64,000 nt of DNA, taken from contig JAQTVM010000001.1 in the NCBI GenBank assembly GCA_028706745.1, positions 12,399-76,398 of the forward strand, given 5' to 3'. Every line of letters starts with the position of its first letter. The first letter of the stretch is position 1. The translations under genes and the position numbers were made by a program. The DNA is from Candidatus Nanoarchaeia archaeon (GTDB taxonomy: Archaea > Nanobdellota > Nanobdellia > SCGC-AAA011-G17 > GW2011-AR17). Positions 15,277-51,395 of the stretch are shown piece after piece. The notes beneath the pieces are model-generated. The model saw only the letters and a list, made by a program, of their open reading frames with translations. It had not been told where the DNA came from and ran no database searches.

Positions 15277-16179
15277 TTACTCGTAGTGTATATTATTCTT
15301 CGTGGTGATTGTCTCTTCAATCTTATCGGCAAATCCTTTTCCTATGCTGTACCCGAAATGCGAGAACATTCTTCCGAAAAATGACGGGTTCTGCACCATC
15401 AGTGTGCCGACATAAGTGTTCTTGAAGTTCCCTCTTTTTTCGCAGGATTTTATTGCTGTCCTCAATGTGCCTGTCCTGTCAACAAGCCCCATTTTTGCTG
15501 CGTCAATACCGTCCCATACATAGCCGTTTGCATATCCTTCAAGCTGGCTCTTTGTCATCCTGTCGCCTGCCTTCTCTTGCCTGCTTTCATAAACAAGATT
15601 GACAAATCTCTCGTGGTGCCTCTTTACAAGGTATTCAAGGTGCTGCCTTTCCTCTGGTCTTAATTCCCTGAACATTGACATGAAGTCCTTTTCTTCCTTT
15701 GATTTTATTACCTCAAGCTTAACTCCAATTTTTTCCATCAGCTCCTTGACAACAAACTTGTTCATTATTACGCCGATGCTTCCGATTAATGCGTCTTCCG
15801 CAACAATTATCTCGTCGCAGCCGCACGCAGTCATGTAAGCGCCTGAAGCGCAAAGACTGTTCACGTAAGCCACCTTCGGCTTTTTCACTTTTCTTACCAA
15901 GTCATAAATTGTCTTGCTTGCTCCTGCCTCTCCTCCGCCTGAGCTTATGTCAAGAATAATTCCCTTTACCCTGTTATTTTCCTCCAAGCCCTTGAGAATC
16001 TTCTCAAGCCCCTGGGGTGTTGTGGGACCGGGCGCATAGTCCTTAGGTCCTGCATTCCCTATCTGCCCGTTGAAAGGCACTCTTATAATCTGGCTGTCTC
16101 CCTTCTTGTACTCGTCTATTTTCCTTTTTATCATGGGGTATCCTATCAGCCCCAGAAACAAAAGACTTATGTAATCCAT
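15277..16179 (-). CDS. sppA: signal peptide peptidase SppA (S49, ClpP/crotonase fold), 36K type
   Basis: ILDISSGGG oxyanion region and SLCASGAYMTACGCDEI catalytic-Ser region typical of SppA. Confidence 0.75.
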   Translation of the reverse strand: MDYISLLFLGLIGYPMIKRKIDEYKKGDSQIIRVPFNGQIGNAGPKDYAPGPTTPQGLEKILKGLEENNRVKGIILDISSGGGEAGASKTIYDLVRKVKKPKVAYVNSLCASGAYMTACGCDEIIVAEDALIGSIGVIMNKFVVKELMEKIGVKLEVIKSKEEKDFMSMFRELRPEERQHLEYLVKRHHERFVNLVYESRQEKAGDRMTKSQLEGYANGYVWDGIDAAKMGLVDRTGTLRTAIKSCEKRGNFKNTYVGTLMVQNPSFFGRMFSHFGYSIGKGFADKIEETITTKNNIHYE

Positions 16180-16373
16180 GTTGAATCGACCTCCGTTAAG
16201 GCTGATTATTCTCTGTCTATTTATATAAGTTGCGGGAAAAATCTCTTTTTTGCCTTTGATTAGCCACTATGCAATGCTATTTCCAACTGGGCCAAAAAGA
16301 AGGAGGTAAGGGGCTTTGCCCCTAACACCCCTTGTTTTCAGGAGAGTCAGCAGTTTTTAAGAAAAGTTTAAAT

Positions 16374-16416
16374 ACTTATTTAGTCCTTATTTAGTCCATA
16401 AATAGTCCTTATTTAA
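16374..16416. promoter_or_regulatory. direct repeats TAGTCCTTATTTA (x2) plus TAGTCCATAAA upstream of the RHH gene; candidate operator
   Basis: seen directly; immediately 5' of the RHH ORF at 16423. Confidence 0.4.
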
Positions 16417-16422
16417 TACAAA

Positions 16423-16572
16423 ATGGCGGAAATAAGATTTGGCATAACGGCGAAATTGGACGGGCTCCTTAAGGATATAGCCGGCAAGTACGGAGTTGAT
16501 AAGTCTGAATATGTAAAGAGCCTTATAATCTCTGACTTGAGAACTAAGGAAGCAAGACCAAAAGACAAGTAA
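16423..16572 (+). CDS. ribbon-helix-helix (CopG/Arc-like) DNA-binding protein, 49 aa
   Basis: Not in the ORF track (<60 aa). Translation MAEIRFGITAKLDGLLKDIAGKYGVDKSEYVKSLIISDLRTKEARPKDK has the beta-strand plus two-helix RHH pattern; sits upstream of the R-M genes. Confidence 0.45.
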   Translation: MAEIRFGITAKLDGLLKDIAGKYGVDKSEYVKSLIISDLRTKEARPKDK

Positions 16573-16750
16573 ATGGCAAGTGGTAAACGGTCATAAAATG
16601 AGAACAAAAAATAAGGCTTGCGAGGGAAGCAGGCGGAAGATTTGCGGAAAGTCCGAAGGACTTTCGGTTAAGGCGGAGAATCCGAACCAGTTGCCACTCG
16701 CCACCCGCACGGACAGGGCTTATAAACATCTAAAGTAAAGGAGAAAAGAA

Positions 16751-18748
16751 ATGATAAGAAAAAATGAATCACAGAAAGACATACTTTTGTTTAATTATTT
16801 GAAAGATAAACGTTCTTTTCAAGAAAAATGGAATACTAAAAAAACAACAAATAAGTTTATTCAACCAGTTCTTGATACTTCAAGTAAGAAAAAGAATGGG
16901 CAAAGAGGAGAACCTGATTTTGTATATGTAAACGAAAAAAGGAAAATATTAATATTAATAGAAAATAAAGATGATATTAATCAACATAAATCTAAAAATG
17001 AAGATAATCCTATAACTTATTCTGTAGACGGTATAAAACATTATTTAAGTTGTTTTAAGAAGGATTATCTAGAAAATTTTAATATTACAATTAAAAAATA
17101 TTTAAATGATTGGAAAATTGTTGGGATTGCTGTATCTGGAAATATTGAGGATGAATATAACCATTTAATCTCTACTTATACTCTCCAAGAAGATGAAGTA
17201 AAAGATATAGAAACAGAAGAAATACTTAATGAAGAGGATTACCTCTCTTTATTTGAGAATATCAATTTAGAAAAAATAACAAGAGATATATCCTTATCAT
17301 CAAATAAGATTAATAATCTTTTACGTTCTTTAGATTCACAAAAGAGACCCATTCTCCTTAGTGCTTTAATGATATGTTTATTTGAACCCAAAAATATTCA
17401 AAATGATTTCAAAAATAACTATTCTAATTGGACAGCAAACACAATTATAACGAATATTCCACTAATAATAAAAACGATTTTAGGAAATGAGGGGATACCC
17501 TCGGAAAAGATTGAAGTATTAAATAATGAACTGACATTTATTAAAACAGATTTAGAACTTAAAAATACAGATATATTGAAGGATATACTCAATGAGCTCG
17601 AGAATAATGTTATCCCACAATTTAATAAAAGCCATAATTATGATATTATTGGGAAGTTTTATGAAGATTTTTTGAGATATGCAGGAGTAACAAATGTAAA
17701 AAAAGGGATTATTTTAACACCTGCCCACATTACTAAATTATTTACAGAATTAATTGATGTTAAAACAAATGATGTTATTATTGATACTTGTTGTGGGACA
17801 GGGGCATTTCTTATTTCAGCGATGAATAAAATAATTGAGGAAATAACAGATTCAAGTATTAAAAATAAAAAAGATTTAATTGATAAAGTTAAACATAAAC
17901 AGTTAATTGGTATCGAAAAGAATACGACCATGTATACTCTCGCAATCTCTAATATGCTATTTAGGGGGGATGGTAAATCCAATATTTACCATTTAGATTC
18001 TTTTTCAAAAGAAGCAGATAAGATTTTATTAAATCTTAAAAAGAGGGGAATTATTCCAACAATCGGCTTTATCAATCCGCCTTATGGCGGTAGAGATAAT
18101 AAAGAAAATCCTACTAAAAAAGAAATTCAATTTTTAGAAAGATTATTGGATAATGTTAGCCGATACGGTATAATCATTGCACCATTGTCTACTTATTTTA
18201 AAGAAGAGATTATTAGAAGTAGAATATTATCCAAGCACACTTTGAAATATGTGATAAATATGCCAAAAGAATTATTTCAACCAAATGCATCTACACATAC
18301 AGCTATTGCAGTATTTAAAACAAATTTACCCCATAATAATAAAGAAGTTATATTTTATAATCTTCAAGATGACGGATTAGTTTTATCAAAAAATAGGGGC
18401 AGAACAGATGCATTAAATAAGTGGGCAAAAATAAAAAAGGAATTATTAACAAAATTGAATAATCCTAAAAAATATGCTGATGGAATAAATCTCGTTATAA
18501 CAAAAATCAGTAATGGGGATGAATGGATATTACAAGCTCATGCAAAAACAGATTATACTAAGATTAATGAAAGAGCATTTATTAATAGTATAAAGCAATA
18601 TATTATCTTTTCAACGAAGAGAAAACTAGGTCTATTAGACAGAGATATTGATGAAATAACCTTATTGGAGATACTTAATGAAAATAAGATAAATGCCAAT
18701 GCTTTACTAAGAGATGTTAAAATTAAAGAAAAAAATGAAAAGATATAA
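16751..18748 (+). CDS. fused restriction-modification enzyme (N-terminal PD-(D/E)xK nuclease plus gamma-class N6-adenine DNA methyltransferase), BcgI-A-like / Type IIB-IIG
   Basis: N-terminal EPDFVYV...ILILIENK (PD...ExK); MTase motif I VIIDTCCGTGAFL and motif IV FINPPYG (NPPY). Confidence 0.75.
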   Translation: MIRKNESQKDILLFNYLKDKRSFQEKWNTKKTTNKFIQPVLDTSSKKKNGQRGEPDFVYVNEKRKILILIENKDDINQHKSKNEDNPITYSVDGIKHYLSCFKKDYLENFNITIKKYLNDWKIVGIAVSGNIEDEYNHLISTYTLQEDEVKDIETEEILNEEDYLSLFENINLEKITRDISLSSNKINNLLRSLDSQKRPILLSALMICLFEPKNIQNDFKNNYSNWTANTIITNIPLIIKTILGNEGIPSEKIEVLNNELTFIKTDLELKNTDILKDILNELENNVIPQFNKSHNYDIIGKFYEDFLRYAGVTNVKKGIILTPAHITKLFTELIDVKTNDVIIDTCCGTGAFLISAMNKIIEEITDSSIKNKKDLIDKVKHKQLIGIEKNTTMYTLAISNMLFRGDGKSNIYHLDSFSKEADKILLNLKKRGIIPTIGFINPPYGGRDNKENPTKKEIQFLERLLDNVSRYGIIIAPLSTYFKEEIIRSRILSKHTLKYVINMPKELFQPNASTHTAIAVFKTNLPHNNKEVIFYNLQDDGLVLSKNRGRTDALNKWAKIKKELLTKLNNPKKYADGINLVITKISNGDEWILQAHAKTDYTKINERAFINSIKQYIIFSTKRKLGLLDRDIDEITLLEILNENKINANALLRDVKIKEKNEKI

Positions 18749-19745
18749 ACTAAATCTAAAAAATTGGAAATATTTTAATTTTAATGATATATTTTCATTT
18801 GAGAGGGGAAAAAGGCTTGTTGAATTAGACCAAATAGGGGGAGATATACCTTATATTGCATCTTCCAAAAAAAATAATGGTATAACAAATACAATTAATC
18901 CTCCTGAATTTATGAAATTATATCGGAATGTTTTAACTCTAAATAATAGCGGGAGTGTAGGATATTGTTTTTATCAAGAATCAGATATAGTATGTTCAGA
19001 CCATGTAACTGTAATATGGATTAAAGATGAAAATGTTAAACTAAATCCATATACTGCTTTATATCTAAAACCTATAATAGAATCAATGCAATATAAATTT
19101 AATTTTGCTAGAGAAATAAGTGATGCTAGGTTAAATAAAGAAAAGATATTACTTCCAACTGACAAAAATGGTAATCCTGACTGGTATTTTATGGAAAATT
19201 ACATAAAGCATATTTCTAAGAGAATAAAATATGATAAGGTAATAAATTTAAGAATAGCGAAGAAATTAGATACCCAGAAATGGAAATGGTTCGATATAGG
19301 AAGTTTATTTGAAATTAAAAAAGGAGAACGATTAATTGAAGAAGAACGAATTAGGGGTGAAATCCCTTTGATTACTGCCTCATCTGAAAATAATGGCGTT
19401 GTTGATTTAATATCCTACCCACATTTTAATAAAGAAAAAAAATGTTTTGAAAATAAGATAACAATTGATATGTTCTTCAATGTATTCTACCATAATTATA
19501 AATATTTTAGTGATGATAATGTTCATACTTTAATACCACTTTTTGAAAAAGTAAATACTTATATTTCATTATTTTTAGTAGCAGTTCTTAAAGAATTACA
19601 ATTTAAATATGCTTATGGTCGACAATTAAGAATAAAAAGATTAGAATTAGAAAAAATTAAGCTTCCCATAGATAAAAGAGGTAAACCTAATTGGGTATAT
19701 ATGGAGGATTATATTAAATCCTTGCCTTATAGCTCAAATCTTTAG
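18735..19745 (+). CDS. specificity (S) subunit with two target-recognition domains (HsdS/BcgI-B-like)
   Basis: Two internal repeats: WKYFNFNDIFSFERGKRL...PYIASSKKNNG and WKWFDIGSLFEIKKGERL...PLITASSENNG. ATG at 18735 overlaps the stop of the upstream gene by 14 nt. Confidence 0.75.
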   Translation: MKRYKLNLKNWKYFNFNDIFSFERGKRLVELDQIGGDIPYIASSKKNNGITNTINPPEFMKLYRNVLTLNNSGSVGYCFYQESDIVCSDHVTVIWIKDENVKLNPYTALYLKPIIESMQYKFNFAREISDARLNKEKILLPTDKNGNPDWYFMENYIKHISKRIKYDKVINLRIAKKLDTQKWKWFDIGSLFEIKKGERLIEEERIRGEIPLITASSENNGVVDLISYPHFNKEKKCFENKITIDMFFNVFYHNYKYFSDDNVHTLIPLFEKVNTYISLFLVAVLKELQFKYAYGRQLRIKRLELEKIKLPIDKRGKPNWVYMEDYIKSLPYSSNL

Positions 19746-19753
19746 GTATATAT

Positions 19754-20029
19754 TTAAGCATTCTTATCTAATTTATTCTTCCCCACTTTCCTGCCAGTTT
19801 TTATATTCCACTTTGCCATACATTCTTCAATAGTATACCACATATAGCATCCCCTATCGCCCTTAAATGCCCTGTATAAGAGTCCAAACAAAAACCATTT
19901 GGTTACTCTCTTTTGCTTTGAGAAAAAAGCCCTGAAAGCATATATAAACGCTATCGGACTCCAAATAATGTGCCTATAGAACCTTTTCCAGAAAGGGGGC
20001 TTAGGGTTTTGCGGTTTTGATGGATTCAT
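19754..20029 (-). CDS. hypothetical small protein
   Basis: 91-aa ORF, basic/hydrophobic, no family recognised. Confidence 0.2.
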   Translation of the reverse strand: MNPSKPQNPKPPFWKRFYRHIIWSPIAFIYAFRAFFSKQKRVTKWFLFGLLYRAFKGDRGCYMWYTIEECMAKWNIKTGRKVGKNKLDKNA

Positions 20030-36968: not shown

Positions 36969-36992
36969 TTATAATACTTTGCCTTAAAGCGC
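36969..36992. repeat. 24-bp direct repeat TTATAATACTTTGCCTTAAAGCGC (copy 1)
   Basis: Identical to 38480..38503. Contains a TATA-like TTTATAATA/TTTAAGG on the minus strand about 25 bp upstream of the aIF2-beta ATG, and overlaps the HEPN stop codon. Confidence 0.9.
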
Positions 36993-37454
36993 ATTTAGCT
37001 TCATTAGTATCTCCTCTTTGAGCTTATTGAAATAAAGCCTGAATTGCAGCTCAATTTTTTTCCAATCATCAAAGTTGACAGGTGTACCATAATAATGGAT
37101 TCCATTCCTTTTGGTCCTCACTATTTCAAAGAAATCCCAATCAAAATCCAATTCAGGATGTATTTCACATAAATAAGCAAAAAGGCACTGGTGGTTATCA
37201 ATTTTAATCCTGTCAAAACGCAGAAAAGATTCAGCCATTTCATGCAGTGCATCATAATAAAGCTTGTATACGCTGTTCCATTCGATGCTGTCTTTAGGAA
37301 TATCTGCAATAAGGCGGTTGGCTGAACTTATGTCGCCTTCTGCAATATCCAATGTTGACTTTATCTTATGAATATCAACGAACTCAACAGCTAAGAATTT
37401 GCCTTCCTTTTTGCATCTGCAAAATGCATCTTTTAGCACAAGATATTCAGGCAT
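36984..37454 (-). CDS. HEPN domain protein (toxin-antitoxin component)
   Basis: R-x4-6-H motif RTKRNGIHY; 8-nt overlap with the upstream MNT gene. Confidence 0.6.
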   Translation of the reverse strand: MPEYLVLKDAFCRCKKEGKFLAVEFVDIHKIKSTLDIAEGDISSANRLIADIPKDSIEWNSVYKLYYDALHEMAESFLRFDRIKIDNHQCLFAYLCEIHPELDFDWDFFEIVRTKRNGIHYYGTPVNFDDWKKIELQFRLYFNKLKEEILMKLNAL

Positions 37455-38073
37455 TTATACTAGCCCTCACAAAATTCATGTCTCCTTTGATAAGATTGCC
37501 TTTTATTATGTTGCTTAATAGCCCTTCGCCAAATTTTTTAAGCTCGCCCTTGTCCTTGCAATTAAATATTTCAATATCCCTGTGAAGCTTTTGCTCAAAA
37601 CCGGCCATTTTCAGCCCGGAATAATCGCCATAAATAAAAATGTCAATATCACTCTTCTCATACCAGTCCGAGCGGGAAAAGCTGCCAAAAAGCACTACTG
37701 TGTCTGCCGCAGGCAAAGAAGCGAGATGGTTCAAAAGCCCTGAATTGTAAAGCTCGTTTAGCGCAAACAGCTTTTTTCTGTTCTTGTATGCCGCTGACTC
37801 GTAATTACCTATATAAAAAGGCATTTTTCCATTTTCCTTTGCCTTCTTTATAATGCCTTGCTTCAAAAATACCTTAAGCCAGCCCGCAGCCTTGCTTCTG
37901 GTAATTTTTGCCTGCTTGAGTATCTCCTCAAAATGCCATTCCCTTGTAGGATTATTGAAAAAGAGCCCAAGCACATTGTCTTCCTTGCTTTTCATAATAG
38001 TTTCTATAATGGGAACTAATTTATAAGCTTTGCTCTTGATGTCCATAAACCACAGTAAAAAGAGATTGTTCAT
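37447..38073 (-). CDS. wHTH plus minimal nucleotidyltransferase (MNT) protein
   Basis: GSFSRSD...DIDIFIY (GS-x9-13-DxD NTase motif); N-terminal winged helix. Confidence 0.65.
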   Translation of the reverse strand: MNNLFLLWFMDIKSKAYKLVPIIETIMKSKEDNVLGLFFNNPTREWHFEEILKQAKITRSKAAGWLKVFLKQGIIKKAKENGKMPFYIGNYESAAYKNRKKLFALNELYNSGLLNHLASLPAADTVVLFGSFSRSDWYEKSDIDIFIYGDYSGLKMAGFEQKLHRDIEIFNCKDKGELKKFGEGLLSNIIKGNLIKGDMNFVRASINA

Positions 38074-38091
38074 AAACTCTTCGGCTCAAAT

Positions 38092-38228
38092 TCCGCAATA
38101 TTTCCGGCAAACCTTGGAAAACCAAAGGAGGCAGCAGGAAAAATAGAGCCAAAATCACGCAAAAACCAATAAATTTCCAACATCTCCGAAAGGGTATTTT
38201 TACCTCTCGTCGTCAAAGCTGGCTTTGC
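38092..38228. repeat. ~140-bp noncoding element, copy 1 (about 70-75% identical to 46470..46620)
   Basis: Shared blocks ATTCCGCA..ATTTCCGGCAA.CCTTGGAAAACC, CCGAAAG and CTCGTCAAAGCTGGCT. Confidence 0.7.
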
Positions 38229-44993: not shown

Positions 44994-45323
44994 TTACTGT
45001 CTTAAGCCGGCCAGCTTTGAAACAAGCTCATTGAAAACAACCTGCTTTTTTTCTTTTGGCAAAGAAAACAATATTTTCTGAACCATTGCCTCTGATATTG
45101 TAAAGATGTAATTAAGCTTGATTATGCTGTCTTTTACAGCGCCTTCTTTCCTTGAAAGCGCAATCCCTTCCATTGAAGTGTTGGATGTTATCCCTGCAAC
45201 AGCCACATTGCCGTGCTCCTCAAATAATACAAGAGCAGGCCGCTTTTTAACTTCAAAAGTGTCCGCAAATTGGACAGAGGCAAGCACCACATCTCCCGCC
45301 TTAAGCATTCTCCCACACCTCAT
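44994..45323 (-). CDS. MazF/PemK-family toxin
   Basis: GDVVLASVQF...KKRPALVL...VAGITSN pattern of the CcdB/MazF fold. Confidence 0.55.
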   Translation of the reverse strand: MRCGRMLKAGDVVLASVQFADTFEVKKRPALVLFEEHGNVAVAGITSNTSMEGIALSRKEGAVKDSIIKLNYIFTISEAMVQKILFSLPKEKKQVVFNELVSKLAGLRQ

Positions 45324-45522
45324 CTTCCTTGTTGTCCCAAAGCTCTTTCATCTTTTGCTGTTGTATCTTGTGCAGGAATTCATCGTATTGGTTTCTTTTC
45401 TTTACGCTATGGAATACCTTTATCATATGCTCAATCAGCTCGGCATAAGTCTGCCTTGGATATTCCTTCAGCTCCTGCATTGCCTTAACAAGCGCCTTGT
45501 CTATCTGTATTGTCGTGTTCAT
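45301..45522 (-). CDS. ribbon-helix-helix antitoxin (partner of MazF-like toxin)
   Basis: Internal Met start MNTTIQIDKALVKAMQEL; 23-nt overlap with the toxin gene. Confidence 0.45.
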   Translation of the reverse strand: MNTTIQIDKALVKAMQELKEYPRQTYAELIEHMIKVFHSVKKRNQYDEFLHKIQQQKMKELWDNKEDEVWENA

Positions 45523-45600
45523 TATATATTCACTATAGTTGGCATATAATCTATTATATATAAGCCTTGCGGATGTTTTGGTTTTGACTATATTTTCCAT

Positions 45601-46434
45601 TCAGGCGCACCCCTCTTTCCTTAAGCCGTCATAAGGGCTTTTAACCGAAATAAAGGCAGAAGGGCACATGTGCACATAAACCATTGTTGTTTCCGCACTG
45701 CTGTGCCCCATCAGGGGCTGGACAGCTGAAACACTGTATCCATTTTCAATCAAATGAGTTGCAAAAGAATGCCTTAATGAATGCGGATGAACCTTCTTCT
45801 TAATGCCTGCCTTTCTTGCAGCATCCCTTACAGTCTCCTGCACGCTCCTCGGATGAAGCGGAAAGCCATTTCTTCCTGCAAACAGCCAATCCTCTCCTGC
45901 ATCACAAACAGCCTTTTTCAGCCTTTCACGCAGGCACTCTGCTATAATAAAAGGCCTGTCCTTGTTTCCCTTTCCGTGCCTTACCCATCCAATGCATCTC
46001 TCAAATTCAAAATCAATAGTTCTTAGGTTAAGAGCCTCGCTTACCCTTAATCCTGCAGAATACAACAACTCAAGAATAAGCCTGTGCTTTTCATTATCAA
46101 CAGCAGAAAAAAGTCGAAGCACCTCATCTTTTGTAAGGAATACAGGCAGCGTTTTCGGCACCTTTGAATACTTAATCCGCCAAGTGACTCTTTTGTGCAA
46201 AACCTCTTCCATCAGGAACTTCAGCGCATTCACGTGCACGTTCAGCGTATTGCCGCACTTATTCTCCGCAACAAGCACGTCGATATAATCCCTAACATCC
46301 TTTGACGTAACGCGCATGAATTCCTTAGGGCAAAAGCGCATGAACTGCCTGACACACTGTATATAAGTAAGGATTGTCTTTCGGCTTAGCCCTCTTCTAA
46401 GCATCTCTTTTTGCATGTTGTAGATAGCGTCCAT
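45601..46434 (-). CDS. tyrosine recombinase, XerC/XerD/XerA-like, without IntI-specific insertion
   Basis: C-terminal HPHSLRHSFATHLIENGYSVSAVQPLMGHSSAETTMVYVHM (R..HxxR...Y). Only ~55 aa lie between the KGNKDR and LRHSF boxes, versus ~100 aa in IntI. Start taken at MDAIYNM (46434). Transcribed away from the cassette array. Confidence 0.8.
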   Translation of the reverse strand: MDAIYNMQKEMLRRGLSRKTILTYIQCVRQFMRFCPKEFMRVTSKDVRDYIDVLVAENKCGNTLNVHVNALKFLMEEVLHKRVTWRIKYSKVPKTLPVFLTKDEVLRLFSAVDNEKHRLILELLYSAGLRVSEALNLRTIDFEFERCIGWVRHGKGNKDRPFIIAECLRERLKKAVCDAGEDWLFAGRNGFPLHPRSVQETVRDAARKAGIKKKVHPHSLRHSFATHLIENGYSVSAVQPLMGHSSAETTMVYVHMCPSAFISVKSPYDGLRKEGCA

Positions 46435-46469
46435 ATAAAGGAGGCAAGAAGCTCGTCCCTTAAAAAATC

Positions 46470-46620
46470 TTCGCACAAAATTCCGCAGGATTTCCGGCAA
46501 CCCTTGGAAAACCCACCAAGCCAGTCGAAAATTATATGCAAAAATAGGCAAAAGACACAAAAATTTACAACATCGCCGAAAGCACTTTTTGAGAACCCTC
46601 GTCAAAGCTGGCTAACTAAA
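46470..46620. repeat. ~140-bp noncoding element, copy 2, in the attI-like region between recombinase and first cassette
   Basis: see copy 1 at 38092..38228. Confidence 0.7.
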
Positions 46621-46705
46621 ACGTGACGACAAAAAATCAAACAATGGCTCTACCAAAAGCCGCCTGAAACCCGCAAAAAGAATGAATTCCTGTGTCTTCT
46701 CGCAT

Positions 46706-46736
46706 ATAGACTGTTAGGCAACATTTGGGTTTGGGC
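46706..46736. repeat. attI-like junction: unique left half (CATATAGACT) plus conserved right half GTTAGGCAACATTT plus left inverted repeat of cassette 1
   Basis: GTTAGGCAACATTTGGG is identical to the start of cassette 4; the left side is unrelated to the attC-like left half. Confidence 0.55.
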
Positions 46737-46748
46737 TAAAAACACTTC

Positions 46749-46979
46749 TTAGAATTTTGCATATAATGGTTCTTTGGGAATTTTTATCATGTAACTATGT
46801 TTACCAACAATTATAATTCCTTCTTCTAAGCCCCATTCAAATAAGTCTTGAGGATTAAACTCAGGAGGAACTCCACCCCTATAAGGTCTAGCCATTAAAC
46901 CTTCTATTCCCTTTCTTAATGCGATAGGCTCAAAAATATGTCCGTCTATTTCTGAAAAAAATTTGTATATATCAAACAT
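46749..46979 (-). CDS. cassette 1 ORF, hypothetical 76 aa
   Basis: Bracketed by the inverted repeats TTTGGGTTTGGGC (46724-46736) and GCCCAAACCCAAA (47038-47050). Confidence 0.35.
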   Translation of the reverse strand: MFDIYKFFSEIDGHIFEPIALRKGIEGLMARPYRGGVPPEFNPQDLFEWGLEEGIIIVGKHSYMIKIPKEPLYAKF

Positions 46980-47037
46980 TTTTTACTCCTATTCATTGTT
47001 AATATTATACCCCTATATAAGTATTATGGTTTTAAAC

Positions 47038-47162
47038 GCCCAAACCCAAACGCTGCGCCCCTGCGGGGGCTTGCCCGACCAGCTCTGGAGCTTGCTGTGA
47101 GGCTCACTTCGCTCGCACTCCAGCTGCGCTCCGAGGGTCGGGTCGCCTAACAGTCGTTAGGC
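47038..47162. repeat. attC-like site 1: cassette IR plus GC-rich module plus palindromic core GCCTAACAGTCGTTAGGC (47145-47162)
   Basis: about 70% GC in a <40% GC genome; conserved blocks AAACGCTGCGCCCCTGCGGGGGCTTGCCCG ... CGAGGGTCGGGTCGCCTAACAGTCGTTAGGCA. Confidence 0.7.
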
Positions 47163-47233
47163 ACAATTTGAGTTGGGACTTCCCCACCGACAAAAGCAAT
47201 ACATTTATATATTTCTAGCAATTTACAAAGGAT

Positions 47234-47566
47234 ATGGTTAGAAAAATATTAAGAAAAACAATAGAAGATTTACCTGTTTGGAAAATAAAATATGGATTAA
47301 CAAGAGGCGATCTAATTCTTATTCATGAATTAGCATTAATCACATTTAAACCTAATGTATTAAATAACTATTTTAAACAAGAGATGGGTGGGGTTCTTGG
47401 TCGTAATCAAGATTGCTCCATTATTTACTTTGCTCGCAATCTCCTTTTAGAAAAGGGTTTGCCACATGCTTTTGTCGGAATGAAATCTGATATGGATGGA
47501 GAAGATTATAAGTTAATACCTGTATCAGATATAGAATCTTACGAAACTCTTAAATTAAAACCTTAA
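47234..47566 (+). CDS. cassette 2 ORF, hypothetical 110 aa
   Basis: Bracketed by TTTGAGTTGGGAC (47167-47179) and GTCCCAACTCAAA (47579-47591). Confidence 0.35.
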   Translation: MVRKILRKTIEDLPVWKIKYGLTRGDLILIHELALITFKPNVLNNYFKQEMGGVLGRNQDCSIIYFARNLLLEKGLPHAFVGMKSDMDGEDYKLIPVSDIESYETLKLKP

Positions 47567-47578
47567 TTGTATATATTC

Positions 47579-47714
47579 GTCCCAACTCAAACTTCTCCGC
47601 TCCTCGCCTGCGGGCTGCGGTGCTCGACCTGCGCAGCTCTGGGCTCGTCAGGAGTGCTCGCTGTCGCTCGCCTCGACTTCGCCCGAGGCGCAGGGTGCCT
47701 AACAGTCGTTAGGC
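47579..47714. repeat. attC-like site 2 (divergent GC-rich module plus core 47697-47714)
   Basis: Same terminal GCCTAACAGTCGTTAGGCAACATT; the GC-rich body is more diverged than at sites 1, 3 and 4. Confidence 0.65.
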
Positions 47715-47766
47715 AACATTTTCCAAAAAGTCCGAAAACACAAAAAGGGAAAGGAAAAAGAATTAT

Positions 47767-48075
47767 CTAAATTCTAGCAGCAACCAAGGGATTATAATAA
47801 TAATCAAACACTAACATAACTGGGGATTTGTTATATATTTTCACTAATTGCCAACCACACTCTTGTTTAGAGGTATGTTTATATTGTTCAAGTACCTTAC
47901 TAAGAGTTCTAATATTTATATCATTTCCAAAAGTTATAGTAGCATGACAAGAAGTTTCATCAGAAGTATAATTATATTCCTTCTCCAATCTCAAAGCTTT
48001 ATTTAATGCTTTACGGATCTTTTGTTCAAGATTTTGATTTGGTGTTGTCTTATCTACTCTTAATTTTATATCCAT
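47767..48075 (-). CDS. cassette 3 ORF, hypothetical 102 aa
   Basis: Bracketed by ATTTTCCAAAAAGTCCG (47718-47734) and CGGACTTTTGGAAAAC (48193-48208). Confidence 0.35.
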   Translation of the reverse strand: MDIKLRVDKTTPNQNLEQKIRKALNKALRLEKEYNYTSDETSCHATITFGNDINIRTLSKVLEQYKHTSKQECGWQLVKIYNKSPVMLVFDYYYNPLVAARI

Positions 48076-48192: not shown

Positions 48193-48313
48193 CGGACTTT
48201 TGGAAAACGCTGCGCCCTGCGGGGCTTGCCCGCTCATCCTCGAACTCGCCATGATGGCTCGCTCCGCTCGCCTCGGCTCGTTCGGGGAGCGGGTCGCCTA
48301 ACAGTCGTTAGGC
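48193..48313. repeat. attC-like site 3 (GC-rich module plus core 48296-48313)
   Basis: see site 1. Confidence 0.7.
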
Positions 48314-48607: not shown

Positions 48608-48754
48608 TTTCGGTTCCCAAACGCTGCGCCCCTGCGGGGGCTTGCCCGCCCAGCTCTGGGGCTTGCCCGCCCAGCTCTGGGGCTTGCCAGGATGGCTCGC
48701 TACCGCTCGCCTCGGCTGCGCCCCGAGGGTCGGGTCGCCTAACAGTCGTTAGGC
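48608..48754. repeat. attC-like site 4 (GC-rich module with internal 21-bp tandem duplication plus core 48737-48754)
   Basis: CTTGCCCGCCCAGCTCTGGGG occurs twice inside the module. Confidence 0.7.
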
Positions 48755-48810
48755 AAAATTACAGGCGGCTCATAAGACTAATAACAAGAAAAGAACAAAC
48801 GGCGGGCGGC

Positions 48811-49878: not shown

Positions 49879-50079
49879 TTTGATTTACCCCCTAAACATA
49901 CTTTCTACAGCAATAATCCACTCCTTCCTTATAAGCCTTACGGAGAACGCCGCCCGCCAACGACGAATATGCCGCCTGTAACTCACCAGATGTCGCTCGC
50001 TGCGGCTCGCTACATCGGTGCCGCGCAGCAGCAGGCTCGCCGTGAAGCTATATTCAACTGTCCGATATATTCGGACAAT

Positions 50080-51169: not shown

Positions 51170-51312
51170 ATTAACTCCAAGTTACTATATAGAAACTATG
51201 AATTACTATATAAACCTTTCTATCCCTAATGACGAAAAACCCCACCTCCTTTATTTTTCGGACAAATAGAGCCTGCGGCGGAGAGATATATCGCCCACCA
51301 AGCCTTATGTCT

Positions 51313-51330
51313 TCCTAACAGTCGTTAGGC
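51313..51330. repeat. core site 5 (TCCTAAC-AGTC-GTTAGGC) without GC-rich module
   Basis: seen directly; followed by GAAATTACAGGCGGCTCACAAGACTAATAACAA, near-identical to the start of cassette 5 (48755-48790). Confidence 0.7.
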
Positions 51331-51395
51331 AGAAATTACAGGCGGCTCACAAGACTAATAACAACTATTAAATATCTGCAAAGCATAATCCTAAT

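What the first reader, a model, noticed from the sequence alone, without database searches (positions are those of the whole stretch)
46435..46736. attI-like region: hybrid first site with reversed spacer and a 140-bp element shared with a distant TA cassette
The recombinase-proximal boundary reads CGCATATA-GACT-GTTAGGCAACATTTGGG. Its right half is identical to a cassette start. The left half is unique. The 4-bp spacer is the reverse complement (GACT) of the AGTC found in all attC-like sites. The 280 bp between this site and the recombinase start codon contain a ~140-bp element (46470-46620) that recurs at 38092-38228.
Basis: seen in the sequence. Interest (0 to 1): 0.6.

Follow-up and report, generated by a model that had tools for sequence, protein, structure and literature searches.

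The report
Cassette insertion site beside archaeal recombinase
This stretch is the docking site where a DPANN archaeon adds small gene cassettes next to a Xer-type recombinase gene, plus that gene's promoter region; the system behaves like a bacterial integron but is built differently.

Summary
All three observations are real. The boundary reads TCGCATATA-GACT-GTTAGGC at 46700-46719. Its spacer is the reverse complement of the AGTC in all five attC-like cores. A ~180-bp element (46435-46613) recurs at 38047-38224.

The attI reading is supported. Eight related loci carry the same box (YTAAC-N4-TRTATGCGA in recombinase orientation), once each, upstream of orthologous recombinases, each with a different neighbouring cassette. 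Two pairs of contigs encoding the same recombinase protein are 99.99-100% identical for 7.0 and 7.7 kb up to the (C)TAAC of this box and unrelated beyond it.

The reversed spacer holds in only 2 of 6 genomes and is probably coincidence.

The repeated element shows no conserved RNA fold. It is the recombinase's promoter-proximal region, with a conserved BRE/TATA about 30 nt before the ATG. Its second copy sits upstream of a lineage-conserved nucleotidyltransferase gene pair among core genes, not a cassette. One relative carries a full attI region there. Another lineage independently duplicated its recombinase promoter in front of hicBA.

The recombinase is XerA-like and lacks the IntI-specific domain, and the attC-like sites are not classical. 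This is an integron-like platform of a new variant.

The parts
45601..46434 (-). Tyrosine recombinase, 277 aa, XerA-like, without the IntI-specific insertion. NCBI MDD4877462.1, Candidatus Nanoarchaeia MAG.
   Evidence: Pfam Phage_integrase 9.4e-42 plus SAM_4. NCBIfam XerA_Arch 214.8 bits (cutoff 220) and integron integrase 197 bits (cutoff 265), in two stretches. Against VchIntIA 2A3V, 19 query residues span 63 chain residues; against XerA 4A8E and 5HXY one continuous alignment covers most of the protein (query 14-256 and 15-261). The LRVSE, HSLRH and VYVH motifs align with the XerA chains. Identity to the public record.
46460..46474 (-). Core promoter of the recombinase gene: BRE-like GCGAAGA (46468-46474) and TATA-like TTTTTTAA (46460-46467), 25 nt before the ATG. 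A leaderless or short-leader transcript is inferred.
   Evidence: GCGAAGAnTTTTTAAg is conserved in five of the six recombinase-linked copies (window, L001, L002, L050; diverged in L043; not in L003). The MNT-linked copies keep the same BRE (CGAAGAG) with a different A/T box, TTTATGAA. Good TATA-like 8-mers in this window's 41 long genes start mostly at -35 to -31 from the ATG.
46435..46613 (-). Motifs: GGCTTTCGGnnATGTTGnAAATT, TTGCCGGAAATnnTGCGGAATTT, then BRE/TATA.
   Evidence: Found upstream of the recombinase or its operon in L001, L002, L003, L043 and L050. No consensus RNA structure on either strand. No Rfam hit. The open reading frame through it is not conserved: 59 codons here, 3-11 in relatives.
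46614..46699 (-). Module A: GGGTTTCAGGCGGC (46659-46672), small hairpin GGCTTTTGGTAGAGCC (46646-46661), T-tract TTGATTTTTTGTCGTC (46625-46640) and GTTAGCC (46610-46616, straddling the junction with module B). Inferred role: terminator or insulator against read-through from the cassettes, and/or accessory binding sites.
   Evidence: Terminator-like hit on the minus strand at 46661-46646. The motifs are conserved in L001, L003 and L063, and the T-tract also in L046/47. Most cassette ORFs read towards this region.
46700..46719 (.). attI-type core: diverged arm TCGCATATA, 4-nt GACT, cassette-derived arm GTTAGGC. The crossover is inferred at G46713|T46714, the canonical G|TTRRRY position.
   Evidence: The box is conserved in eight related loci, each with a different left flank in recombinase orientation. 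Identity breakpoints fall at CTAAC in L046/L047 (7,038 bp identical) and at TAAC in L044/L045 (7,666 bp at 99.99%).
46714..47156 (.). First cassette (443 bp). It carries a 76-aa ORF at 46749-46979 (-), its own TATA-like and SD-like signals, and terminal inverted repeats TTTGGGTTTGGGC / GCCCAAACCCAAA.
   Evidence: Read directly in the sequence and in the ORF list. The ends of the circularised cassette fold into an outer stem.
47038..47162 (+). attC-like site 1: cassette-specific inverted-repeat arm, GC-rich hairpin, palindromic core GCCTAAC-AGTC-GTTAGGC.
   Evidence: Covariation in the hairpin base and the palindrome arms across 24 sites.
47579..47714 (+). attC-like site 2
48193..48313 (+). attC-like site 3
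48608..48754 (+). attC-like site 4
51314..51330 (+). Terminal palindromic core with no GC-rich hairpin; marks the distal end of the array.
38047..38224 (-). Second copy of module B. It is a direct repeat of 46435-46613 lying 8.39 kb away, immediately upstream of the nucleotidyltransferase gene. BRE/TATA CCGAAGAGTTTATGAA lies 22 nt before ATG 38046.
   Evidence: The same arrangement is conserved in L063 and L087.
36984..38046 (-). Conserved gene pair: a 199-aa nucleotidyltransferase (MNT-like, with a possible N-terminal winged helix) at 37447-38046 and a 156-aa partner at 36984-37454.
   Evidence: Pfam Polbeta and NTP_transf_2. NCBI starts the protein at this ATG (P0121), and 337 homologues were found. 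The partner has no Pfam hit. The winged helix is weak: TrmB E = 0.16 here, with PF01978 recorded for two homologues.

Best explanation
46700-46719 is the attI-type insertion site of a chromosomal gene-cassette platform run by the adjacent XerA-like tyrosine recombinase.

Shown: the array joins conserved DNA exactly here, and cassettes differ from strain to strain on the array side only.

Inferred: the recombinase binds the cassette-type arm (GTTAGGCAACAT) and the diverged but conserved arm (TCGCATATA). It exchanges strands at G|TT, as in integrons. The 4-nt and central sequences of attI and attC do not match, so probably only one strand pair is exchanged and replication resolves the junction, as in integron and CTX-phage integration.

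The 278 bp between the site and the gene are regulatory DNA in two modules. Module A is a T-rich, terminator-like segment that could shield the recombinase gene from cassette transcription, which mostly runs towards it. Module B is the recombinase promoter with upstream operator-like motifs. Module B is duplicated in front of a conserved nucleotidyltransferase gene pair, so the two operons probably share a regulator.

The reverse-complement spacer is a lineage-specific coincidence.
For: Site conservation: YTAAC-N4-TRTATGCGA occurs once per locus, 200-850 bp upstream of orthologous recombinases (64-84% identity), in L001, L002, L003, L043, L044/45 and L046/47. It also occurs in L063. Every locus has a different sequence on the cassette side.

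Turnover: L046 and L047 encode the identical recombinase. They are 100% identical for 7,038 bp from CTAAC onwards and unrelated before it. They share a Fic cassette at different array positions. L044 and L045 are 99.99% identical over 7,666 bp from TAAC onwards and unrelated before it.

The cassette boundary core GTTAGGC fits GTTRRRY.

The attI arm TATATGCGA resembles the attC arm GTTAGGCGA at 6 of 9 positions (direct reading).

Structure is conserved in the cassette sites: compensatory changes occur in the hairpin base and the palindrome arms across 24 sites.

Module B: it is found at the recombinase in L001, L002, L003, L043 and L050. Its BRE/TATA sits where this genome's TATA-like elements sit. 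No RNA structure, no Rfam hit and no conserved ORF were found.

The second copy is conserved with its gene pair in L063 and L087. An independent 62-nt promoter duplication precedes hicBA and the recombinase in L044.
Against: No biochemical or read-level evidence of recombination exists for this window's own genome. The strand-exchange point is bounded only to (C)TAAC plus adjacent bases.

The recombinase scores essentially as a housekeeping XerA, so a dedicated cassette function is inferred from linkage alone.

The TATA-like box of the recombinase copy (TTTTTTAA) is a weak match to TTTAWATA.

The terminator and operator roles are inferred from motif conservation and position only. No regulator has been identified, and the winged helix of the nucleotidyltransferase is sub-threshold.

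L063, the contig with a full attI in front of the nucleotidyltransferase pair, is only 2.2 kb long and could be a chimeric assembly across the repeat.
Confidence: 0.72

Rival explanations
1. The site is the chromosome's dif site for the housekeeping XerA, and the 'cassettes' are small IMEX-like elements that integrated in tandem at dif by exploiting Xer.
For: The recombinase is XerA-type: 214.8 bits against a cutoff of 220, homologues are named by that model, and one continuous alignment with XerA structures covers most of the protein. The cores can be read in an 11-6-11 format: attC GGGTCGCCTAA-CAGTCG-TTAGGCAACAT with arms matching 9/11 as an inverted repeat, and attI TTCTCGCATAT-AGACTG-TTAGGCAACAT (direct reading). 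From memory, the E. coli dif XerC arm also contains CGCATA. Tandem arrays of elements each carrying a dif-like site are known for IMEXs (established knowledge).
Against: The arms of attI match only about 3-6 of 11 as an inverted repeat. Predicted XerA dif sites in Thermococcales show few or no arm mismatches and are not next to xerA (PMC2958812). The cassettes are 0.44-0.6 kb single-ORF units with no replication or phage genes. The sites carry a covarying ~85-nt hairpin unknown in dif. GC skew in the window follows the coding strand and shows no switch at the site.
Confidence: 0.2
2. The reversed spacer is functional. It makes attI and attC pair antiparallel, so the recombinase inverts DNA, or it sets cassette orientation, rather than simply inserting.
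For: The attI minus strand (GCCTAACAGTC) is identical for 11 nt to the plus strand of every attC core in the window. L043 shows the same AGTC/GACT relation. The array-distal flank is homologous to that of L003 but in the opposite orientation, which hints at inversions at palindromic cores.
Against: The relation is absent in L001, L002, L003 and L046/47. The observed junction (cassette inverted-repeat arm next to attI, GC hairpin distal) is not the product expected from spacer-homology-guided pairing (inference). A 4-mer relation has roughly a 1-2% prior once several possible relations are allowed.
Confidence: 0.06
3. The 180-bp element is a small non-coding RNA gene, a mobile element or a short peptide gene, not a promoter region.
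For: It is a discrete unit with sharp ends. L001 and L050 carry an insertion exactly at its distal edge. A 59-codon open frame runs through it in the window.
Against: RNAalifold gives -6.85 kcal/mol on the sense strand and 0 pairs on the antisense strand. There is no Rfam hit. The frame is closed after 3-11 codons in relatives, and the two window copies differ by indels. Every copy lies directly upstream of a gene or operon start (within 34 nt in six of the eight copies) and contains BRE/TATA. The window has only two copies, and no other locus fetched has more than one.
Confidence: 0.05

Closest known systems
Integron attI sites (attI1 of class 1 integrons; the putative archaeal attIs of Ghaly et al. 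2022, PMC9668308)
   Same: A unique site lies next to the recombinase gene where cassettes join conserved DNA. The junction is at G|TTRRRY (here G|TTAGGC). One arm is cassette-like and one is diverged. Cassette content varies between strains. Upstream conserved motifs could be accessory binding sites.
   Different: The recombinase lacks the IntI-specific additional domain. The cassette sites are not single R''-L''/L'-R' hairpins: the two GTTRRRY-type boxes are only 3-4 nt apart, beside a separate GC hairpin, all enclosed by a cassette-specific stem. Most cassette ORFs read towards attI and carry their own promoters, so no Pc is needed.
Xer/dif recombination and IMEX arrays (CTX/TLC-type elements at Vibrio dif; XerA/dif in Thermococcales, PMC2958812)
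   Same: The recombinase is a simple Xer-type enzyme. The core sites have inverted arms around a short central region. Units are integrated in tandem, each bringing its own site. The central regions do not match, which suggests a single strand exchange.
   Different: The units are gene cassettes, not phages or plasmids. attI is strongly asymmetric. The site lies next to the recombinase gene. A large covarying hairpin belongs to each cassette site.
LexA/SOS control of the integron integrase promoter in bacteria (established knowledge)
   Same: The recombinase promoter carries conserved operator-like motifs that it shares with another operon. This suggests regulated rather than constitutive expression.
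   Different: Archaea have no LexA and the regulator here is unknown. The shared partner operons are toxin-antitoxin-like (a nucleotidyltransferase pair; hicBA in L044). The link is inferred only from duplicated promoter DNA.

Membership tests
Integron (IntI, attI, attC cassettes) | The integrase carries the IntI-specific additional domain around patch III | tested here: not met
   Against VchIntIA (2A3V), query residues 178-196 (19 aa) correspond to chain residues 183-245 (63 aa). The TIGR02249 match is split in two and scores 197 against a cutoff of 265.
Integron (IntI, attI, attC cassettes) | A unique attI lies next to the integrase gene and cassettes join at G|TTRRRY | tested here: met
   TCGCATATA-GACT-G|TTAGGC lies 278 bp from the ATG and is unique in the window. 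The box is conserved in relatives. Identity breakpoints fall there.
Integron (IntI, attI, attC cassettes) | attC is a single imperfect hairpin R''-L''...L'-R' with boxes 50-140 nt apart and extrahelical bases | tested here: not met
   GCCTAAC and GTTAGGC are 4 nt apart. The folds are multibranched: outer cassette-specific stem, GC hairpin and mini-hairpin. Published archaeal attCs are classical (Data S9).
Integron (IntI, attI, attC cassettes) | Cassette sites are conserved in structure rather than in sequence | tested here: met
   Across 24 sites, 9 of 14 predicted pairs show compensatory changes; for example, hairpin-base pairs switch from CG to UA in up to 9 sites.
Integron (IntI, attI, attC cassettes) | Promoterless cassettes are transcribed away from attI from a common Pc promoter | tested here: not met
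   Six of seven ORFs in the window's array, and most in L001, L046 and L047, read towards attI. Cassette 1 has its own TATA-like and SD-like signals. The only outward TATA-like candidate (46528-46540, +) is conserved in L003 alone.
Integron (IntI, attI, attC cassettes) | Recombinase-dependent attI x attC recombination | not testable with these tools
   Only population-level breakpoints are available.
Archaeal XerA/dif dimer-resolution system | The recombinase belongs to the XerA equivalog | tested here: inconclusive
   NF040815 scores 214.8 bits, just under its cutoff of 220. Some homologues carry that model's name.
Archaeal XerA/dif dimer-resolution system | dif is a single 28-bp site with near-perfect 11-bp inverted arms and a 6-bp spacer | tested here: not met
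   The attI arms match at most about 6 of 11. The near-palindromic cores are the multi-copy attC-like sites. The criterion comes from PMC2958812.
Archaeal XerA/dif dimer-resolution system | The site lies at the replication terminus and is the only Xer target in the genome | not testable with these tools
   Only a 64-kb window is available, and the skew follows the coding strand.
   The nucleotidyltransferase domain is present, but MntA scores 21.7 against a cutoff of 60. The partner has no HEPN hit. The pair is lineage-conserved and lies among core genes with no attC-like site.

The most novel reading that the evidence does not exclude
DPANN (Nanoarchaeia/Woesearchaeota) archaea run an integron-like cassette-capture platform with their XerA-type recombinase, with no IntI insertion. 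It uses compound cassette sites (dif-like palindromic core plus covarying hairpin plus cassette-specific stem) and a conserved asymmetric attI. The recombinase promoter is wired to toxin-antitoxin-type operons through a shared operator, giving stress-linked control analogous to SOS control of bacterial integrases. This would be either a living intermediate between Xer/dif and integrons or an independent invention of the integron principle.
Probability: 0.4. Interest if true: 0.85.

Novelty: new variant of a known kind. Interest (0 to 1): 0.62.

Why it matters
Integrons are defined by a specialised integrase and by folded attC sites, and their origin from Xer-like recombinases is assumed but undocumented. 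Here a plain Xer-type enzyme sits beside arrays that turn over at one conserved site in natural populations. If this is confirmed, cassette capture does not need the IntI-specific domain. Tools that require that domain and a classical attC model would probably miss such systems, and this gives a concrete system for testing how integrons arose. The promoter shared with toxin-antitoxin-like operons offers a testable lead on how archaea, which have no LexA, might time recombinase expression.

Tried and rejected
- Rfam on the whole window (gathering threshold) and on 46300-47800 (E up to 1) found nothing.
- RNAalifold on module B, both strands, found no structure.
- A peptide or N-terminal extension through module B was rejected because the open frame is not conserved.
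- The sigma-70 promoter scan is not relevant to archaea; only its terminator-like hit was used.
- GC skew as a clue to the terminus or dif was uninformative.
- A second recombinase in the window was sought by tblastn; none was found.
- The two nucleotidyltransferases in the window are not detectably similar to each other.
- Extra operator-like copies were sought in the window (TGCCGGAAAT, CTTTCGGnGATGTTG); only the two known places matched beyond chance.
- The metagenome scan for the module B motif gave 34 hits. Only L050 and L063 are full-length copies, and L079 has a 55-nt sub-motif.
- The viral-contig scans gave 1 and 120+ pattern hits. None matches module B beyond a weak partial hit (the single hit, L082) and none lies near a recombinase homologue (the 120), so they are chance matches.
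- More distant nucleotidyltransferase loci (L083-L086) and more distant recombinase loci (L044-L047, L004-L008) have no module B.
- Literature searches for Xer-linked cassette arrays in DPANN or Woesearchaeota found no description in the held library.
- The archaeal dif sequence could not be read from the papers' text because it is in figures. The comparison with E. coli dif therefore rests on memory.

Full report
**Setting**

The window comes from a Candidatus Nanoarchaeia (DPANN) metagenome-assembled genome. The recombinase protein is 100% identical to NCBI MDD4877462.1, which sits on a 106,874-bp contig. MCM, TBP, a class I aminoacyl-tRNA synthetase (Pfam tRNA-synt_1; called LeuRS in my working notes without a specific test), aIF2-beta and an RPA-like gene lie nearby.

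On the minus strand the gene order is: array (51.3 to 46.7 kb), boundary site, 278-bp spacer, recombinase (46434-45601), a 99-aa DUF7557-like gene plus a MazF-like gene, the tRNA synthetase, TBP, MCM, the RPA-like gene, an 82-aa ORF, the second copy of the element, a nucleotidyltransferase gene pair, and aIF2-beta.

- The boundary reads TCGCATATA (46700-46708), GACT (46709-46712), GTTAGGCAACATTTGGG (46713-46729).
- The right half equals the starts of cassettes 3 and 4.
- The core CCTAACAGTCGTTAGG occurs exactly five times on the + strand, against 0.15 expected, always with spacer AGTC. The boundary spacer is therefore its reverse complement.
- TCGCATATA is unique in the window.
- The repeat is genuine. 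With gaps, 46435-46613 matches 38047-38224. The blocks AGCCAGCTTTGACGA and TTTTCCAAGGnTTGCCGGAAAT are found only at these two places, and nhmmer gives E = 4.9e-15.

**The site in relatives**

I fetched loci encoding close relatives of the recombinase, oriented with the recombinase on the + strand. In that orientation every locus with 64-84% identity has one copy of YTAAC-N4-TRTATGCGA, 200-850 bp upstream of the gene.

| Locus | Boundary site (recombinase orientation) |
|---|---|
| window | GCCTAAC-AGTC-TATATGCGAGAAGA |
| L001 | AACTAAC-TGTT-TATATGCGA |
| L002 | AACTAAC-GCTC-TGTATGCGA |
| L003 | ACCTAAC-TGAT-TATATGCGAGAAGA |
| L043 | GCATAAC-AGTC-TATATGCGA |
| L044/45 | TTAAC-AGTG-TATATGCGA |
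| L046/47 | CTAAC-CGTT-TATATGCGA |

The sequence on the cassette side differs in every locus.

**Direct evidence of turnover**

L046 and L047 encode the same recombinase protein. They are 100% identical for 7,038 bp from CTAAC rightwards and unrelated to the left. They share a Fic-like cassette that is second from the site in one and ninth in the other.

L044 and L045 are 99.99% identical for 7,666 bp from TAAC rightwards. To the left, one has a 421-aa gene and the other a methyltransferase plus a radical-SAM gene.

Two independent strain pairs thus place a recombination breakpoint at this box. This is what an attI does.

**The spacer**

| Genome | attI 4-mer | attC spacer | Reverse complements? 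|
|---|---|---|---|
| window | AGTC | GACT | yes |
| L043 | AGTC | GACT (one site), GAT (other) | yes |
| L001 | TGTT | GACT / GACG | no |
| L002 | GCTC | GACT | no |
| L003 | TGAT | GATT | no |
| L046/47 | CGTT | CGT | no |

The junction actually seen has the cassette's inverted-repeat arm next to attI and the GC hairpin distal. That is not the product expected if spacer homology guided antiparallel pairing. I treat the reversed spacer as coincidence, or at most lineage-specific.

**Anatomy of the cores**

The cassette-side arm extends beyond 7 bp. AATWTTGnnCCTAAC is conserved across genomes.

The attI arm TATATGCGA matches the attC arm GTTAGGCGA at 6 of 9 positions, so attI looks like a core site with one diverged arm.

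The central sequences of attI and attC do not match. Ordinary two-step duplex exchange with overlap homology is therefore unlikely. A single strand exchange at G|TT resolved by replication, as in integrons and CTX-type Xer integration, fits best. This is an inference.

**What kind of system this is**

The recombinase has both Pfam tyrosine-recombinase domains, and the LRVSE, HSLRH and VYVH motifs align with the XerA structures. It has 19 residues where VchIntIA has 63, so it lacks the IntI-specific domain. One continuous alignment with XerA structures covers most of the protein, residues 14-256 and 15-261 of 277. It scores 214.8 on the XerA model (cutoff 220) and 197 on the integron-integrase model (cutoff 265).

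The cassette sites are compound structures:
- a cassette-specific 13-16-bp outer stem formed by the two cassette ends;
- a GC-rich ~85-nt hairpin;
- the palindrome GCCTAAC-N3/4-GTTAGGC.

Across 24 sites from six loci plus the window, the hairpin base and the outer palindrome pairs show compensatory changes. Structure is therefore selected, as in attCs, but the architecture differs from the classical archaeal attCs published by Ghaly et al. (Data S9), whose integrases do carry the extra domain.

Most cassette ORFs read towards attI and carry their own promoter-like signals. There is no need for a Pc promoter. The only outward TATA-like candidate (46528-46540) is conserved in L003 alone.

**The 278-bp spacer is modular**

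Module A (46614-46699) holds GGGTTTCAGGCGGC, a small hairpin and the T-tract TTGATTTTTTGTCGTC. Cassette transcription runs towards the recombinase and archaeal termination uses oligo-T tracts, so I infer a terminator or insulator role. Accessory binding sites are an alternative.

It runs from AGCCAGCTTTGACGA to the start codon. It ends in a conserved BRE/TATA (GCGAAGAnTTTTTAAg) 25 nt before the ATG, where this genome's TATA-like elements usually lie. It has no consensus RNA fold on either strand, no Rfam match and no conserved reading frame. It precedes the recombinase or its operon in L001, L002, L003, L043 and L050.

**The second copy**

The second copy precedes ATG 38046 of a nucleotidyltransferase gene, with its own BRE/TATA (CCGAAGAGTTTATGAA) ending 22 nt before that ATG. 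This gene and its 156-aa partner have hundreds of 60-70% identical homologues. In more distant genomes they lie among housekeeping genes, with no array and no module B. This is not a cassette.

Within the narrow clade the link is conserved:
- L087 has MCM, the RPA-like gene, the tail of module A, module B, then the nucleotidyltransferase.
- L063 has a cassette-like end, a full attI box (CATAAC-TGAT-TATATGCGAAGAGAGG), module A, module B, then the nucleotidyltransferase, its partner and aIF2-beta.

The window's second copy is therefore a truncated paralogue of an attI-plus-promoter region. L063 is short and could be an assembly chimera across the repeat.

The distal 29 nt of L087's copy are identical to the window's recombinase-linked copy, which suggests gene conversion between the two copies.

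Independently, L044 has a 62-nt promoter repeat (85% identity) in front of hicBA and in front of the recombinase.

Recombinase genes of this family are also flanked by toxin-antitoxin-like pairs:
- DUF7557/MazF in the window;
- RHH/PIN in L044/45;
- a ParE/YoeB-like pair in L041.

The simplest reading is shared transcriptional control of the recombinase and toxin-antitoxin-type operons. The regulator is unknown, and a winged helix in the nucleotidyltransferase is only weakly indicated.

**Rivals**

The dif/IMEX reading remains possible at about 0.2, because the enzyme is Xer-type and the cores can be read as 11-6-11. Against it stand the asymmetry of attI, the position next to the gene, the single-ORF cassettes and the covarying hairpin. 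A functional reversed spacer and an RNA or mobile-element reading of module B have little support.

**Verdict**

The attI-like function is supported by comparative and population evidence. The reversed spacer is probably meaningless. The repeated element is a duplicated promoter module.

The wider system works like an integron but fails two defining membership tests (the IntI domain and classical attC), so I rate it a new variant of a known kind. No description of it was found in the held literature.

Noticed in passing
window 48748-48787 and 51324-51364; 49955-50050: A ~40-bp direct repeat (GTTAGGCAnAATTACAGGCGGCTCAyAAGACTAATAACAA) brackets cassette 5 and a HEPN/nucleotidyltransferase pair. 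Between them lies a degenerate attC-like GC hairpin (GCCGCCTGTAAC...) that lacks the palindromic core.
   Followed up: partly
window 51230-51330 versus L003 1-50 and 1640-1700: The last core has no GC hairpin. Its left flank (CGCCCACCAAGCCTTATGTCTT and GACGAAAAACCCCACC...GGACAAATAGAGCCT) is homologous to the array-distal flank of L003, but in the opposite orientation relative to the recombinase. This may reflect an inversion at a palindromic core.
   Followed up: partly
window 44994-45600; L044 5412-5909 and 6902-7532; L041 196-791: Recombinase genes of this family are flanked by toxin-antitoxin-like pairs that are contiguous and co-oriented: DUF7557/MazF here, HicBA plus RHH/PIN in L044/45, and a 90-aa gene plus a ParE/YoeB-like gene in L041 and L005.
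   Followed up: partly
L001 9655-9825; L050: A ~170-bp insertion sits exactly at the module A/B junction, flanked by TTTGACAAC repeats. The L001 array also carries IS elements (Y2 transposase and DDE transposase genes).
   Followed up: no
L087 ~950-1000 versus window 46585-46613: The distal 29 nt of L087's nucleotidyltransferase-linked module B are identical to the window's recombinase-linked copy, not to the window's own second copy. This suggests gene conversion between the two copies.
   Followed up: partly
L046 4278-4951 and L047 625-1293: The same Fic-like cassette sits at different distances from attI in two strains with identical recombinases. This is consistent with insertion of newer cassettes at attI or with shuffling.
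   Followed up: partly
window 16001-20000: A region of markedly low G+C (0.30 against about 0.41 elsewhere), which may be an island of foreign DNA.
   Followed up: no
L079 4470-4526: A 55-nt sub-motif of module B (GGCTTTCGGTAATGTTGGAAATTC) occurs alone, just upstream of a TTTAAATA box of an unrelated small gene. It may be an independent protein-binding motif.
   Followed up: no
L043 3396-6944: The EF-2 gene downstream of the recombinase carries an intein with a LAGLIDADG domain.
   Followed up: no
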